This document shows, piece after piece, positions 16,360 to 19,564 of a stretch of 24,000 bases of DNA. This DNA is from Stutzerimonas stutzeri (GTDB lineage Bacteria > Pseudomonadota > Gammaproteobacteria > Pseudomonadales > Pseudomonadaceae), in the NCBI RefSeq assembly GCF_009789555.1, contig NZ_CP046902.1, positions 4,168,856-4,192,855 of the forward strand. The letters are read 5' to 3'. Positions within the stretch are counted from its first letter, which is position 1. Each line of letters starts with the position of its first letter. The notes beneath the pieces are model-generated. The model saw only the letters and a list, made by a program, of their open reading frames with translations. It had not been told where the DNA came from and searched no databases. The translations under genes and the position numbers were made by a program.

Positions 16360-17883
16360 ATGACCAACCCGCCCGATCATTCATCCACCCCCGACTACGA
16401 ATGGCCGCGCATTTCCACCGGCAGCACCGGCCTGGACGACATTCTCGGCGGCGGCCTGGACCCCAACCGGATGTATCTGTACGAGGGCAGCCCAGGCTCC
16501 GGCAAGACCACCATCGCGCTGCAATTTCTTCTCGAAGGCGTGCGCCACGGCGAGCGCGTGCTCTACGTAACGCTGTCGGAAACCAAGCAGGAGCTGGAAC
16601 TCGTCGCCAAGCGCCACGGCTGGTCACTAGAAGGCATCGATGTGTTCGAGCTGGTGACGCCCGAGGATTCGCTCGACCCCGAGCTCGAGCTGACCGTGCT
16701 GCACCCCGCGGAAATGGAGTTGAGCGAGACGACCAAACAGGTCTTCGACCGCGTCACTGAGACAAACCCGACGCGGGTCGTCTTCGACAGCCTGTCCGAG
16801 ATGCGCCTGCTCGCGCAGAGCCCGCTGCGTTATCGCCGGCAGGTGCTGGCGCTCAAGCACTTTTTCACCACGCGCCGTTGCACCGTGATCCTGCTTGACG
16901 ACCAGACCTCGGAAAGCGGCGACCTCCAGTTGCACTCGATCTCCCACGGTGTCGTGATGCTCGAACAACTGGCCATCGATTACGGTGCCGAGCGCAGACG
17001 GCTGCGGGTAATCAAGATGCGCGGCATCAAGTTCCGCGGTGGCTATCACGACTTCACCATCAAGACCGGCGGCCTGGCGATCTACCCCCGCCTGATCGCC
17101 GCTGAACACCACTCGCCCTTCGTCGGTGAACTCACCTCCAGCGGTACCGCTGAGCTGGACCAGATGCTGGGGGGTGGCCTGGAGCGCGGCACCAACGCGC
17201 TGCTGATCGGCGCCGCCGGGGTTGGCAAATCATCCGTGGCGCTGGGCTTTGCCGCCGCTGCCTGCAAGCGCGGGGAACATGTCGCCTTCTTCGTGTTCGA
17301 CGAGGGCATCGGCACACTGCTGGCGCGCGCACGGGCGCTCGGGCTGGACCTCGACCCCTGGATCGAAGGCGGCCTGCTGCACTTGCAACAGGTCGACCCC
17401 GCGGAGCTGTCGCCCGGCGAATTCACCGCCGCGGTACGCCACAGCGTCGAGGAACAAGCCGCGCAGCTGGTCATCATGGATAGCCTCAACGGCTACCTGA
17501 ACGCCATGCCCGACGGACGGTTCCTGATCTTGCAGATGCATGAACTGTTGAGTTATCTCGGACAGAAAGGCGTGATCAGCGTGATGGTACTGGCCCAGCA
17601 TGGGCTGGTAGGGCCGATGGATACGCCAATCGATATCAGCTACCTCAGTGATACGGTTATCATGCTGCGCTATTTCGAGCATGCCGGCGTGGTTCGGCGT
17701 GCGCTGTCGGTGGTAAAAAAACGCAGCGGACGTCACGAAGACACCATTCGAGAGTTCCGCCTTGGCGCTTCCGGCATCAGGGTCGGACGGCCGCTCGTGA
17801 ACTTCAGCGGCATATTCTCGGGCACGCCCACGTACACCGGCGATGCCAACCCCCTCATGAAAGACGAGCATGACGACACCTAA
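16360..17883 (+). CDS. kaiC: KaiC-like double RecA-domain ATPase
   Basis: AAGGAG RBS. Two tandem domains each carry a Walker A (GSPGSGKTT; GAAGVGKSS) and GLDDILGGGL / LDQMLGGGLERG. The C-terminal ...DISYLSDTVIMLRYFEHAGVVRRALSVVKKRSGRHEDTIREF aligns with the S. elongatus KaiC CII region ...HISTITDTIILLQYVEIRGEMSRAINVFKMRGSWHDKAIREF. Confidence 0.88.
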   Translation: MTNPPDHSSTPDYEWPRISTGSTGLDDILGGGLDPNRMYLYEGSPGSGKTTIALQFLLEGVRHGERVLYVTLSETKQELELVAKRHGWSLEGIDVFELVTPEDSLDPELELTVLHPAEMELSETTKQVFDRVTETNPTRVVFDSLSEMRLLAQSPLRYRRQVLALKHFFTTRRCTVILLDDQTSESGDLQLHSISHGVVMLEQLAIDYGAERRRLRVIKMRGIKFRGGYHDFTIKTGGLAIYPRLIAAEHHSPFVGELTSSGTAELDQMLGGGLERGTNALLIGAAGVGKSSVALGFAAAACKRGEHVAFFVFDEGIGTLLARARALGLDLDPWIEGGLLHLQQVDPAELSPGEFTAAVRHSVEEQAAQLVIMDSLNGYLNAMPDGRFLILQMHELLSYLGQKGVISVMVLAQHGLVGPMDTPIDISYLSDTVIMLRYFEHAGVVRRALSVVKKRSGRHEDTIREFRLGASGIRVGRPLVNFSGIFSGTPTYTGDANPLMKDEHDDT

Positions 17884-19564
17884 GCGAGACAGCCCACTAG
17901 TAGTCGTCTTCGCTCCCATTGGCAGGGACGGGCCCGCGACCGCCGACCTGCTACGCCGCAGCGGCATGAATGCCGACGTCTGCCACAGCGTCGGCGAGGT
18001 ACTGGAGCGGGCCGAGTCCGATGCCGATGCGGTGTTCATTGCCGAAGAGGCGTTGTTCGGCCAGGACCTCCAGGACCTCGCCGCCTGGGTGGATCGTCAA
18101 CCGGCATGGTCCGACTTCCCATTCGTGGTACTGACCAGCAAGCACCGTCAACCGGCTGTCAGTGCCTGGCGACAACGCCTGGTCGCAACGCTGCGCAACG
18201 TCTCGCTGCTCGAACGGCCGGTGCAAAGCATCACCCTGACCAGCGCCCTCCAGGCGGCGGTGCGCGGTCGCCTTCGCCAATATGAGGTCCGCGCGTTGAT
18301 CGAGGCCCGCGAGCAGGCCTCGCATGAACTCGAGGCGCTGGTTGTCGAGCGAACCCGCGCGCTCGAACAGGCCAACGTCGAGTTGCGCACGCAGATGGCC
18401 GAGCGCGCGCACATCGAAGAAACACTGCGCCAGACACAAAAGATCGAGGCCATCGGACAACTCACCGGCGGCATCGCCCATGATTTCAATAATTTGCTGA
18501 TGGTCATTGCTGGCGGCCTCGACATGATCGATCGCCGCTCCGATCCGGAACGCCGCCAGCGTTTGATGGATGGCATGCGCCAGGCCGCACAGCGAGGGGC
18601 CGCGCTGACCCGCCAGTTACTCGCCTTTTCCCGGCGGCAATCGCTGGCACCCGAGCCGGTCGACCTCGCCCATCGCATCAGCCGGATGCGCGAGCTGCTT
18701 GACCGCAGCCTGCGGGGCGACGTGCATGTCGAGGTGCAGTTCGCTTCGGACCTGTGGCCAGTGGAAGTCGATCCGGGCGAATTGGAGCTGGTGATTCTCA
18801 ACCTCGCAGTCAACGCACGCGACGCGATGCCTGAAGGCGGAACGATTTTGCTGCAGGCCTCGAATGCGCCTGACGAGCACGTGCTTGGCCGACGCGGCGA
18901 TTTCGTTCGCCTGGCGGTGATCGACACCGGTACCGGCATCCCCGCCGAGGTGCGCGGCCGCGTATTCGACCCCTTTTTCACCACCAAGGAAATCGGCAAG
19001 GGCTCCGGCCTCGGCCTGGCGCAGGTCTATGGGTTCGCTCGGCAATCCGGCGGTACGGTATGGATCGACACCGAATGCGGCGAGGGCACCAGCGTGATTC
19101 TCCTGCTGCCCCGCTCGGCCACCGCGCCGGACGAGCCTGGCCAGTCCGGCAAACTGCAGGTGGACATACCCGTGGGCGCGTCGGCCGGCAACGTTTTGTT
19201 GGTCGATGACGATGAAGAGGTCGCGGCGCTGGTGGGCGAAATGCTCCAGCACCTGGGCTTCACCGTGACCCATGCCGCCAGTGCCGCTGCGGCACTCGGC
19301 GCGCTGGCCAATGGACGCGCGGTGGACATCGTCTTCTCCGACGTGATGATGCCCGGCGGCATGAATGGCGTGGAACTGGCGCGTGAGATCCGCGCAAGGC
19401 GCCTCGATATTCCGGTTCTGCTGACCAGCGGCTATGCCGAGGCCGCAAAAAAGGCGGCGGCCGACGAAGGTGTCTACGTGCTCGCCAAGCCCTATCGGCT
19501 GGAAGAACTGGCCCTTGCGATCCGCGAGGCGATGACCAGCGCGGCCGCAAATCAAATGGCATGA
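17870..19564 (+). CDS. hybrid histidine kinase: N-terminal pseudo-receiver, coiled coil, HisKA, HATPase_c and C-terminal receiver
   Basis: The start overlaps the kaiC-like stop by 14 nt. H-box QKIEAIGQLTGGIAHDFNNLL. NLAVNARDAM, DTGTGI, GSGLGL. REC VLLVDDDEEV...VFSDVMMPGGMNG...LAKPY. The N-terminal ~120 aa has a REC-like alpha/beta pattern without the acidic pocket. Confidence 0.9.
   Translation: MTTPKRDSPLVVVFAPIGRDGPATADLLRRSGMNADVCHSVGEVLERAESDADAVFIAEEALFGQDLQDLAAWVDRQPAWSDFPFVVLTSKHRQPAVSAWRQRLVATLRNVSLLERPVQSITLTSALQAAVRGRLRQYEVRALIEAREQASHELEALVVERTRALEQANVELRTQMAERAHIEETLRQTQKIEAIGQLTGGIAHDFNNLLMVIAGGLDMIDRRSDPERRQRLMDGMRQAAQRGAALTRQLLAFSRRQSLAPEPVDLAHRISRMRELLDRSLRGDVHVEVQFASDLWPVEVDPGELELVILNLAVNARDAMPEGGTILLQASNAPDEHVLGRRGDFVRLAVIDTGTGIPAEVRGRVFDPFFTTKEIGKGSGLGLAQVYGFARQSGGTVWIDTECGEGTSVILLLPRSATAPDEPGQSGKLQVDIPVGASAGNVLLVDDDEEVAALVGEMLQHLGFTVTHAASAAAALGALANGRAVDIVFSDVMMPGGMNGVELAREIRARRLDIPVLLTSGYAEAAKKAAADEGVYVLAKPYRLEELALAIREAMTSAAANQMA

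What the first reader, a model, noticed from the sequence alone, without database searches (positions are those of the whole stretch)
16360..19564. KaiC-like ATPase translationally coupled to a hybrid histidine kinase, with no KaiA or KaiB
A full-length two-domain KaiC homologue ends 14 nt inside the start of a hybrid kinase (17870..17883 overlap). This implies co-translation and probably a complex. No kaiB- or kaiA-like ORF exists in the 350-bp upstream leader or anywhere else in the window. In cyanobacteria KaiC output runs through the kinases SasA and CikA, which dock through KaiB-like and pseudo-receiver domains. Here the docking partner appears hard-wired as the next gene. KaiC homologues without KaiA/B have been reported in non-photosynthetic bacteria and linked to stress resistance and biofilm, but their signalling mechanism is poorly defined. 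This pair sits next to a curli amyloid locus, which makes it a strong candidate for an uncharacterised ATPase-timer or stress-to-biofilm module.
Basis: partly seen in the sequence, partly recalled or inferred. Interest (0 to 1): 0.75.

Follow-up and report, generated by a model that had tools for sequence, protein, structure and literature searches.

The report
KaiC-like ATPase with pseudo-receiver kinase
This is a real two-gene signalling unit, a clock-protein relative (KaiC-like ATPase) paired with a cytoplasmic hybrid histidine kinase. The same pair has been described in many proteobacteria since 2011, so it is an ordinary new member of a known but poorly understood family, and its position beside curli genes looks incidental.

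Summary
A 507-aa double-domain KaiC homologue (16360..17883) overlaps by 14 nt the start of a 564-aa cytoplasmic hybrid histidine kinase (17870..19564). No KaiB was detected in the window.

The pair is not new as a kind. It has the published features of the "kaiC (SY/TY) + Nt_HK, no kaiB" context that De Luca et al. defined in 2011 (PMC3164672). It also carries the Ser-Tyr pair that marks Pseudomonas group I KaiC-like proteins (Terrettaz et al., bioRxiv 2022). It is most likely the kaiC2-kaiR2 type of Methylobacterium extorquens.

What I add:
- The kinase N-terminal domain is a high-confidence (beta-alpha)5 pseudo-receiver, not a KaiB/SasA-like fold.
- KaiC-like lies directly upstream of this kinase in 79 of the 80 best genome loci.
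- The stop/start overlap is kept in 76 of 78 scorable loci.
- The pseudo-receiver is always N-terminal in histidine kinases (about 4,000 cluster representatives).
- No other gene is conserved with the pair. Curli genes lie near it in only one other locus.

Most likely mechanism: the state of the KaiC-like hexamer (ATPase activity, Ser427 phosphorylation) is read by the pseudo-receiver and gates the kinase's phosphorelay. A dedicated curli or biofilm role is not supported.

The parts
16008..16359 (+). 352-bp leader between the divergent methyltransferase gene and the kaiC-like gene. It holds the AAGGAG ribosome-binding site at 16349-16354. No ORF of note and no sigma-70 consensus promoter was found in it.
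   Evidence: In close relatives a topoisomerase-III-like gene is inserted at this position.
16360..17883 (+). kaiC-like gene, 507 aa, with two RecA/KaiC domains. The N-terminal (CI-like) domain has Walker A GSPGSGKT (43-50), LSET with a single catalytic Glu74, and Walker B DSLSE (143-147). The C-terminal (CII-like) domain has Walker A GAAGVGKS (284-291), FDEG (Asp314-Glu315) and DSLN. The phospho-site region is T422...S427-Y428. The C-terminus is short and acidic, with no KaiA-binding tail.
17870..17883 (+). 14-nt stop/start overlap (ATGACGACACCTAA) between the kaiC-like gene and the kinase gene, which implies translational coupling.
   Evidence: An overlap is conserved in 76 of 78 homologous loci: ATGA in Bradyrhizobium and 11-17 nt in most others.
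17870..18229 (+). Kinase residues 1-~120: a pseudo-receiver domain, the 'Nt'/RtaNt-type domain of the literature, with a (beta-alpha)5 fold. The receiver catalytic positions are replaced: the acidic pair by P16-I17-G18-R19-D20, the phospho-acceptor Asp by A58-E59-E60, and the Lys by E115-R116-P117. T89 is kept. Invariant family residues are R19, D20, E59, E60, Q77, W80, S81, D82, P84, N110 and E115.
   Evidence: pLDDT 93.9; the Foldseek PDB top hits are nearly all receiver domains. There is no Pfam hit for this region.
18230..18454 (+). Kinase residues ~121-195: a long continuous helix (modelled for residues 120-187) that links the pseudo-receiver alpha5 to the DHp domain. It is probably a coiled-coil signalling helix.
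18455..19117 (+). Kinase core. HisKA covers residues 196-258 with the phospho-acceptor His204 in the motif AHDFNN. HATPase_c covers 301-415, with the N box NLAVNARDA, G1 DTGTG (352-356) and G2 GSGLG (378-382). It is CckA/PRK13557-like. The protein has no transmembrane segment.
19193..19564 (+). C-terminal bona fide receiver domain (residues 442-551) with D446/D447, phospho-acceptor D491, T519 and K540. This makes the protein a hybrid kinase.

Best explanation
The pair is a member of the widespread kaiB-less 'KaiC(Ser-Tyr) + pseudo-receiver histidine kinase' two-gene module of proteobacteria.

Shown here:
- A double-domain KaiC-family ATPase with intact Walker motifs in both domains and a conserved Ser427-Tyr428 at the clock phosphorylation site.
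- A soluble hybrid kinase whose only input domain is an N-terminal pseudo-receiver, joined to the catalytic core by one long helix.
- Near-obligate adjacency of the two genes, and a conserved stop/start overlap.

Inferred mechanism:
1. The two proteins are made in a fixed ratio from one mRNA.
2. The KaiC-like protein forms a hexamer. Its nucleotide and auto-phosphorylation state (Ser427, possibly a second site) changes slowly with energy status, stress or time in stationary phase.
3. The pseudo-receiver of the dimeric kinase docks on the hexamer in a state-dependent way.
4. Through the helical linker, docking switches the kinase between autokinase and phosphatase modes.
5. This sets phosphoryl flow from His204 to Asp491, and then on to an unidentified Hpt protein or response regulator encoded elsewhere.
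6. The output is modulation of stress-tolerance genes.

So the system works like the KaiC-to-SasA/CikA output arm, but without KaiB as adaptor and with no evidence of a free-running rhythm.
For: - Family assignment and motifs.
- Pseudo-receiver fold: the AF2 model has mean pLDDT 93.9 and a (beta-alpha)5 core followed by a helix at residues 120-187. The Foldseek top hits are nearly all receiver domains at probability 1.00. The catalytic Asp and Lys are replaced by family-invariant residues.
In the best 80, KaiC-like (68-91% identity) lies immediately upstream in 79; the exception is a truncated contig.
- Overlap: 76 of 78 loci.
- No other gene is conserved across genera.
- No KaiB in the window or within 6 kb in the 80 loci.
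- The pseudo-receiver is always N-terminal in histidine kinases: 3,967 representatives at E<=1e-10, and 10 of 10 sampled have HK, HK-REC or PAS/GAF-HK-REC architectures.
- Literature on the family: cotranscription in Ramlibacter and the definition of the context (PMC3164672). KaiC-kinase binding by two-hybrid, strong for the group I P. protegens pair and weaker for P. putida, where it was also confirmed by co-IP. Stationary-phase accumulation and phosphorylation, and no KaiB in 1,255 Pseudomonas genomes (10.1101/2022.01.26.477890). M. extorquens KaiC2 is phosphorylated on S426 and has UV, heat and leaf-colonisation phenotypes (PMC8069551).
Against: - No experiment exists on this locus.
- I could not compare the window proteins directly with Rta_04330/04340, P. 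protegens CHA0 or M. extorquens AM1 sequences. Equivalence to those published systems rests on shared diagnostic features (the SY pair, gene order, receiver-like N-domain, no kaiB, 76-77% identity to Methylobacterium homologues), not on a phylogeny.
- In the only case where the interacting kinase domain was mapped (P. putida, group III), it was called a PAS domain, not a pseudo-receiver.
- The direction of information flow (KaiC to kinase) is assumed by analogy.
- The CI domain has Ser-Glu instead of the Glu-Glu pair, so its ATPase properties may differ from clock KaiC.
- The downstream partner of Asp491 is unknown. No Hpt gene or DNA-binding regulator is linked to the pair.
Confidence: 0.6

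Rival explanations
1. The pair is a minimal KaiB-independent hourglass or circadian timer. KaiC-like phosphorylation would rise and fall with a roughly daily period and drive rhythmic kinase output. This is the hypothesis De Luca et al. raised for Ramlibacter.
For: Phosphorylatable residues are kept at the clock sites (T422, S427). The family is extremely conserved: 68-77% identity between gamma- and alphaproteobacterial KaiC-like proteins. The hourglass idea was proposed in PMC3164672.
Against: In Pseudomonas homologues, phosphorylation followed culture age rather than circadian cues (abstract). There is no KaiA or KaiB to close a feedback loop. Thr432 is replaced by Tyr and Glu77 by Ser. The protein scores far below the clock-KaiC equivalog cutoffs (255 against 408 bits; 158 against 546 bits).
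Confidence: 0.15
2. The module is a dedicated regulator of the neighbouring curli locus, linking stress to biofilm. It might act through the adjacent PAS hybrid kinase and the CsgD-like regulator.
For: The curli genes lie 4 kb away. The intervening PAS-HK-REC has a kinase core 41-45% identical to the KaiC-coupled kinase, so cross-talk is conceivable. From my own memory, not checked here: the published version of the Terrettaz study reports a biofilm phenotype in Pseudomonas.
Against: Adjacency is not conserved. Only L015 shows a curli gene within 6 kb, about half of the Stutzerimonas loci have a different upstream context, and no locus outside Stutzerimonas has curli genes nearby. Two opposite-strand genes separate the loci. 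The module occurs in at least 575 species genomes, and no curli gene lies within 6 kb in any of the non-Stutzerimonas loci examined.
Confidence: 0.1
3. Information flows the other way. The kinase, through its pseudo-receiver or its C-terminal receiver, would regulate the ATPase or autokinase activity of the KaiC-like protein, in the manner of KaiA, whose N-terminal domain is also a pseudo-receiver. The KaiC-like hexamer would then be the effector.
For: KaiA carries an N-terminal pseudo-receiver (PMC12632262). The kinase has no other sensory domain, so nothing shown here fixes the direction. In some genomes a single-domain receiver gene precedes kaiC-like (L081, L078, L025).
Against: The KaiC-like protein has no recognisable effector domain. 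Relatives insert PAS and GAF sensor domains between the pseudo-receiver and the kinase core, which fits the pseudo-receiver being one of several inputs into the kinase. The KaiA-binding C-terminal tail is absent.
Confidence: 0.15
4. The ATPase is a RadA/Sms-type or other RecA-family DNA-repair protein that has been misread as KaiC.
For: Weak partial hits to RecA, DnaB and RadA models through the shared P-loop core.
Against: RadA TIGR00416 scores 83 bits against a cutoff of 403 and covers only the P-loop region. The full-length two-domain alignment is to KaiC structures. The protein has no zinc finger and no Lon-like domain. It is always linked to a histidine kinase.
Confidence: 0.01

Closest known systems
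'Second kaiC context' of De Luca et al. 2011 (Ramlibacter tataouinensis Rta_04330 KaiC / Rta_04340 Nt_HK; PMC3164672)
   Same: kaiC with SY/TY/SF at the S431/T432 positions. It is followed directly by a histidine kinase with a conserved N-terminal domain that has weak receiver similarity. There is no kaiB. The two genes form one operon.
   Different: I did not compare the sequences directly. De Luca et al. also likened the N-terminal domain to SasA/KaiB. The model here shows a (beta-alpha)5 pseudo-receiver instead. The window kinase is a hybrid with a C-terminal receiver.
Pseudomonas group I KaiC-like proteins and their kinase (P. protegens CHA0; Terrettaz et al., bioRxiv 10.1101/2022.01.26.477890)
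   Same: The diagnostic SY/TY pair. No KaiB in the genus. An adjacent kinase that binds KaiC in two-hybrid tests. The closest relatives outside the genus are in Rhizobiales. The stutzeri group was included in their survey.
   Different: The CHA0 partner is described as a plain, non-hybrid kinase. [quoted passage not shown] Group membership of the window protein is inferred from the residue pair only.
Methylobacterium extorquens AM1 kaiC2-kaiR2 (Iguchi et al. 2018, read through the review PMC8069551)
   Same: A two-gene cluster without kaiB. It has a single functional phospho-serine (S426, against S427 here). Methylobacterium homologues of the window pair are 76-77% (KaiC-like) and 68-70% (kinase) identical to it and have the Ser at about residue 424.
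   Different: The reported phenotypes (UV and heat resistance, leaf colonisation) may not transfer to Stutzerimonas.
Cyanobacterial KaiC output arm (KaiC-KaiB-SasA/CikA-RpaA)
   Same: A KaiC-family hexameric ATPase/autokinase whose state is read by histidine kinases. One of those kinases (CikA) uses a pseudo-receiver domain.
   Different: This system has no KaiA and no KaiB. CikA's pseudo-receiver is C-terminal and binds KaiB rather than KaiC. SasA docks through a KaiB-like thioredoxin fold. Here the pseudo-receiver is N-terminal and the kinase gene is translationally coupled to kaiC. The clock-KaiC equivalog scores are not reached.
Rhodobacter/Rhodopseudomonas KaiBC hourglass systems (PDB 8dba, 8fwi)
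   Same: Proteobacterial double-domain KaiC. It is about as distant from the window protein as cyanobacterial KaiC is (E 4e-46 against 5e-48).
   Different: Those systems depend on KaiB, and the 568-aa solved chains are about 60 residues longer than the window protein. From my own memory, not checked here: that extra length is a C-terminal coiled-coil extension. The window protein has neither KaiB nor the extra length.

Membership tests
KaiC family (Pfam PF06745, double-domain RecA-superfamily ATPase) | Two tandem KaiC/RecA-like domains, each with Walker A and Walker B motifs, that can be aligned end to end with solved KaiC | tested here: met
   PF06745 at E 1.8e-64 in two stretches. Residues 17-493 align to 14-492 of 8zn5. 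GSPGSGKT at 43, GAAGVGKS at 284, DSLSE and DSLN.
KaiC family (Pfam PF06745, double-domain RecA-superfamily ATPase) | Catalytic glutamate pairs (E77/E78 in CI, E318/E319 in CII of S. elongatus) | tested here: inconclusive
   CI has Ser73-Glu74 (LSET) and CII has Asp314-Glu315 (FDEG). Both variants are conserved across 76 family members. One Glu per domain is kept, but activity is untested.
Bona fide circadian-clock KaiC (NCBIfam equivalogs NF006799, TIGR02655) | Score at or above the curated equivalog cutoff | tested here: not met
   254.9 bits against a cutoff of 408, and 157.9 bits against 546.
Bona fide circadian-clock KaiC (NCBIfam equivalogs NF006799, TIGR02655) | Ser431-Thr432 phosphorylation pair and a C-terminal KaiA-binding tail | tested here: not met
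   The window protein has Ser427-Tyr428 instead. It ends 14 residues after the aligned region, whereas S. elongatus KaiC continues to residue 519.
Bona fide circadian-clock KaiC (NCBIfam equivalogs NF006799, TIGR02655) | Partner kaiB (and kaiA) genes | tested here: not met
   No KaiB by tblastn in the window or in the 80 related loci. Absence across the whole genome cannot be tested from a 24-kb window. The literature reports no KaiB in 1,255 Pseudomonas genomes.
kaiC(SY/TY)+Nt_HK module (De Luca 2011 second context; Terrettaz group I) | SY, TY or SF at the positions of S431/T432 | tested here: met
   DISYLSD with S427-Y428, and SY in all 76 aligned family members.
kaiC(SY/TY)+Nt_HK module (De Luca 2011 second context; Terrettaz group I) | kaiC immediately followed by a histidine kinase gene in the same operon | tested here: met
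   A 14-nt overlap in the window. The same gene order in 79 of 80 loci and an overlap in 76 of 78. Cotranscription itself was not tested here; it was shown by RT-PCR in Ramlibacter.
kaiC(SY/TY)+Nt_HK module (De Luca 2011 second context; Terrettaz group I) | Kinase carries the conserved family-specific N-terminal domain ('RtaNt') with weak receiver similarity | tested here: inconclusive
   A conserved N-terminal domain with a receiver fold is present. It recurs in Nt-HK, Nt-HK-REC and Nt-PAS/GAF-HK-REC architectures like those De Luca lists.
kaiC(SY/TY)+Nt_HK module (De Luca 2011 second context; Terrettaz group I) | Physical interaction between KaiC and the kinase | not testable with these tools
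   Shown only for P. protegens and P. putida homologues in the literature.
Canonical receiver domain (PF00072) for kinase residues 1-120 | Acidic pair after beta1, phospho-acceptor Asp after beta3, Thr/Ser after beta4, Lys after beta5 | tested here: not met
   The fold is a receiver fold, but the residues are PIGRD, AEE, T89 and ERP, and PF00072 does not match. The domain is therefore a pseudo-receiver.
SasA-type KaiC-docking domain (KaiB-like thioredoxin fold) | N-terminal KaiB-like fold and sequence similarity to KaiB | tested here: not met
   The model is (beta-alpha)5 and its best structural matches are nearly all receiver domains. KaiB tblastn finds nothing in the kinase gene.
RadA/Sms | TIGR00416 equivalog score; zinc finger plus a single RecA domain plus a Lon-like domain | tested here: not met
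   83 bits against a cutoff of 403. The match covers the P-loop region only, and the protein has two RecA-like domains instead.

The most novel reading that the evidence does not exclude
The N-terminal pseudo-receiver may be a dedicated reader of KaiC state that binds the KaiC-like hexamer directly, with no KaiB adaptor. The two proteins would then form a self-contained two-component interval timer for stress or starvation. This pseudo-receiver lineage would also be evolutionarily related to the pseudo-receivers that the cyanobacterial clock recruited in KaiA and CikA. In this Stutzerimonas lineage the timer could additionally feed, through the paralogous neighbouring PAS hybrid kinase, into CsgD-like control of curli.
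Probability: 0.12. Interest if true: 0.6.

Novelty: new member of a known kind. Interest (0 to 1): 0.3.

Why it matters
KaiC homologues without KaiA or KaiB are very common in soil and plant-associated proteobacteria, and how they signal is still open. This locus is a clean, minimal example: two genes, a soluble kinase and a single input domain.

The analysis narrows the open question to one testable interface, KaiC-like hexamer against a roughly 120-residue pseudo-receiver with about a dozen invariant surface-candidate residues. It also removes a misleading lead, the curli neighbourhood. It does not reveal a new kind of system.

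Tried and rejected
- RadA/Sms or another RecA-family reading: rejected on scores and architecture.
- KaiB search: tblastn of a validated S. elongatus KaiB against the window and 80 loci found nothing.
- Sequence search of the kinase N-domain against the PDB gave only a marginal receiver hit (3grc, E 0.36). The fold assignment needed the AF2 model plus Foldseek.
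- Conserved third genes: all-vs-all ORF clustering of the 80 loci found only Bradyrhizobium-specific synteny (GNAT, DUF2336, FeoB) and Stutzerimonas-specific synteny (SASA-like esterase, AraC).
- The downstream 515-aa gene is a weak match to a SASA-type carbohydrate esterase (just below the Pfam cutoff) with a signal-peptide-like N-terminus by my reading of its sequence. It is not the 'EPS sortase' reported near group I KaiC.
- Promoter and terminator scans of 15900-19800 gave nothing above shuffled expectation.
- Rfam scan of the window: no hits.
- Literature: the published version of Terrettaz et al. (DOI 10.1111/1462-2920.16330) is not held, and I found no PMC id for Iguchi 2018. A search for 'kaiR2' returned only unrelated papers.
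No explicit phylogeny with the named reference proteins was made.

Full report
**1. The observation**

The window (64% G+C) holds an ORF at 16360..17883 (+). It starts at an ATG that is preceded by AAGGAG and ends at TAA 17881-17883. A second ORF runs from ATG 17870 to 19564 (+). The two share the 14 bases ATGACGACACCTAA.

The first product (507 aa) matches Pfam KaiC PF06745 at E 1.8e-64 in two stretches. It aligns over its whole length with solved KaiC structures: residues 17-493 against 14-492 of 8zn5 (E 5e-57), and it has similar E-values to Thermosynechococcus, Synechococcus and Rhodobacter KaiC.

The second product (564 aa) has HisKA (196-258), HATPase_c (301-415) and a C-terminal receiver (442-551). 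The catalytic residues are all present: His204, the N, G1 and G2 boxes, Asp446/447, Asp491, Thr519 and Lys540. There is no hydrophobic segment, so the protein is a cytoplasmic hybrid kinase.

A KaiB probe found nothing in the window at E<=10. I had recalled the probe sequence from memory and validated it against PDB 4kso. None of the ORFs scanned against Pfam hit KaiA or KaiB.

A curli locus lies at 8144-12338 (csgD-like, csgE, csgF, csgG, csgB-like and a long csgA-like gene). It is separated from the pair by two minus-strand genes: a PAS-PAS-HK-REC hybrid kinase (12484-14757) and an RlmI/K-like SAM methyltransferase (14997-16007).

**2. What the ATPase is**

It belongs to the KaiC family but is not a clock KaiC.
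- It scores 254.9 bits on NF006799 (cutoff 408) and 157.9 bits on TIGR02655 (cutoff 546). RadA/Sms reaches only 83 bits (cutoff 403).
- Against the S. elongatus numbering, the CI Glu77-Glu78 pair is Ser-Glu (LSET) and the CII Glu318-Glu319 pair is Asp-Glu (FDEG).
- Thr426 is kept (T422) and Ser431 is kept (S427), but Thr432 is Tyr428.
- The protein stops shortly after the region that aligns with the A-loop, so there is no KaiA-binding tail.
- These are family traits, not local decay. LSET, FDEG/N and D[ILM]SYLSD are conserved in all 76 aligned homologues.

The closest database proteins are from Stutzerimonas stutzeri and relatives (up to 92% identity). Homologues in Methylobacterium, Acetobacteraceae and Aliidongia are still 74-78% identical, which is unusually high conservation across classes.

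**3. What the kinase N-terminus is**

Residues 1-~190 have no Pfam or NCBIfam match and only a marginal sequence hit to a receiver domain in the PDB. Homologues of this region are abundant and carry invariant motifs: APIGRD, AEE, QPxWSDxP, LT(S/T), NVSLLERP and RARxRQYE.

An AlphaFold2 model built on that alignment is confident (mean pLDDT 93.9). It shows a (beta-alpha)5 core (strands at 10-14, 34-38, 54-58, 85-89 and 111-115) followed by one continuous helix at 120-187 that runs into the HisKA domain. The best Foldseek matches in the PDB are nearly all response-regulator receiver domains (WspR/PA3702, BfmR, PhoP, DctD, PhoB, RssB and others) at probability 1.00.

The receiver's catalytic residues are replaced. 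The acidic pair becomes PIGRD, the phospho-acceptor Asp becomes AEE, and the Lys becomes Arg in ERP. Only the beta4 Thr (T89) remains. The domain is therefore a pseudo-receiver and not a KaiB/SasA-like thioredoxin fold.

**4. How tightly the two genes go together**

The best 80 come from Stutzerimonas, Bradyrhizobium, Methylobacterium, Caulobacter, Lysobacter, Xanthomonas, Bordetella, Povalibacter, Sphingomonas, Rhodomicrobium and even a Gemmataceae MAG.
- In 79 of these 80 loci a KaiC-like gene (68-91% identity) sits immediately upstream. The one exception has only 156 bp of upstream sequence.
- In 76 of 78 scorable loci the kaiC stop and the kinase start overlap by 1-23 nt. The overlap is ATGA in most Bradyrhizobium and 11-17 nt elsewhere.
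- An independent look-up from the KaiC side (P0116) shows the same pair with a 14-nt overlap.
- No KaiB lies within 6 kb in any of the 80 loci.
- All-against-all clustering of flanking ORFs found no third gene conserved across genera.
- A single-domain receiver gene precedes kaiC-like in a few genomes (L081, L078, L025).
- A profile search of 1.84 billion representative proteins found 3,967 with the pseudo-receiver at E<=1e-10. In all 150 listed it lies at or within about 80 residues of the N-terminus. Ten sampled proteins were all histidine kinases: plain, hybrid, or with PAS/GAF domains inserted between the pseudo-receiver and the core.

**5. The curli neighbourhood**

Among the 16 Stutzerimonas/Pseudomonas loci, only L015 shows a curli gene within 6 kb. 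About half have a different upstream context, such as an ABC1-type kinase. Others carry a topoisomerase-III-like gene between the methyltransferase and kaiC-like. No locus outside Stutzerimonas has curli genes nearby. The pair is on the opposite side of two minus-strand genes from the curli operon. Adjacency therefore gives no support for a functional link.

**6. What is already known**

- De Luca et al. 2011 (PMC3164672) defined a 'second kaiC context'. [quoted passage not shown] They reported no kaiB elsewhere in the genome and showed cotranscription in Ramlibacter by RT-PCR. They noted the conserved N-terminal kinase domain ('RtaNt', 19% identical to a receiver domain) and proposed it as the KaiC-interaction module.
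- Terrettaz et al. (bioRxiv 10.1101/2022.01.26.477890) found no KaiB in 1,255 Pseudomonas genomes and described three KaiC-like groups. Group I is defined by TY or SY. KaiC was 'virtually always' next to a histidine kinase, and KaiC homologues occurred in more than half of stutzeri-group strains. They showed KaiC-kinase binding by two-hybrid (strong for the group I P. protegens pair) and co-IP. They also showed accumulation and phosphorylation in stationary phase, and stress-related transcriptome changes.
- In M. extorquens AM1 the kaiC2-kaiR2 cluster lacks kaiB. KaiC2 is phosphorylated on S426, and its loss changes UV and heat resistance and leaf colonisation (PMC8069551).

The window protein has the diagnostic SY pair with the Ser at position 427. 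It is 76-77% identical to Methylobacterium homologues whose Ser lies at about residue 424. I therefore file the pair as a new member of this known module. One caveat applies: I could not obtain the named reference sequences, so this rests on shared defining features and not on a tree.

**7. Mechanism**

Shown: the domain anatomy, intact catalytic motifs, a pseudo-receiver as the only input domain of a soluble kinase, a rigid helical connection to the DHp domain, near-obligate gene pairing and conserved translational coupling.

Inferred, partly from published binding data on homologues:
- The KaiC-like protein forms a hexamer whose nucleotide and Ser427-phosphorylation state changes with energy, stress or time.
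- The pseudo-receiver reads that state directly, without KaiB.
- The helical linker then shifts the kinase between kinase and phosphatase modes.
- This controls the flow from His204 to Asp491, and onward to a partner encoded elsewhere.

I put about 0.6 on this mechanism. My confidence that the pair belongs to the known module is higher (about 0.9).

Rivals are a true hourglass or circadian timer (0.15), reverse signalling in the manner of KaiA (0.15), a dedicated curli regulator (0.1) and a RadA-like repair role (0.01, refuted).

**8. Verdict**

The finding is real and correctly read in outline, but it belongs to a kind described since 2011 and partly characterised since 2018-2022. The increments from this analysis are:
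- a confident pseudo-receiver fold for the 'Nt' domain, which corrects the SasA/KaiB comparison;
- quantified pairing and overlap conservation;
- a size and architecture census of the pseudo-receiver family;
- removal of the curli inference.

Interest is modest (0.3). The family's mechanism remains an open and tractable question.

Noticed in passing
window 8144-12338: The curli locus lies entirely on one strand: csgD-like LuxR regulator, csgE, csgF, csgG, a csgB-like gene (10543-11016) and an unusually long csgA-like gene (424 aa, seven curlin-repeat stretches). From memory, E. coli has two divergent csg operons instead. The CsgD-like protein scores only 84 bits against the 250-bit CsgD cutoff.
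   Followed up: partly
window 12484-14757 (-): A PAS-PAS-HisKA-HATPase-REC hybrid kinase, convergent on csgA-like. Its CckA/PRK13557-like core is 41-45% identical to the KaiC-coupled kinase. It is a paralogous core and a conceivable cross-talk partner.
   Followed up: partly
L001 2022-4019 (-) versus window 16008-16359: Close relatives carry a 665-aa gene between the methyltransferase and kaiC-like that I read, by eye and without a family scan, as topoisomerase-III-like. The window has only a 352-bp leader there. The upstream junction of the module is a site of gene gain or loss.
   Followed up: partly
L081 7605-7961; also L078 1973-2320 and L025 4054-4401: In some genomes a 118-aa single-domain receiver gene sits directly upstream of kaiC-like, which makes a three-gene variant of the module. 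The window lacks this gene.
   Followed up: partly
L056 4490-5854: In Bradyrhizobium sp. HKCCYLS20291 the KaiC-like alignment stops at residue 439 and an early stop follows. This could be a frameshift, a pseudogene or an assembly error.
   Followed up: no
L072: A Gemmataceae (Planctomycetota) MAG contig carries the pair at 74% and 64% identity to the Stutzerimonas proteins. This suggests horizontal transfer or bin contamination.
   Followed up: no
window 19685-21232 (+): A 515-aa protein with a signal-peptide-like N-terminus (my reading of the sequence) and a weak SASA-type carbohydrate-esterase match lies 120 bp downstream of the kinase on the same strand. No terminator-like site was predicted between them. 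It is conserved downstream only in Stutzerimonas (9 loci).
   Followed up: partly
window 2095-2916 (+), 2862-3530 (+), 3827-4795 (+): Two ORFs with coding-like composition have no Pfam hit; the first (2095-2916) also has no NCBIfam hit. They are followed by a DUF6279 protein. The left end of the window also holds a glucose/sorbosone dehydrogenase fragment (1-1230, -) and an S4/pseudouridine-synthase-like ORF (1050-2009, +).
   Followed up: no
window 17830-17883 and homologous loci: The acidic C-terminal tail of the KaiC-like protein (…DEHDD[TA]) is conserved in Stutzerimonas. Its last codons double as the kinase start (CAT GAC GAC, which contains the ATG). Both reading frames therefore constrain this stretch.
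   Followed up: no
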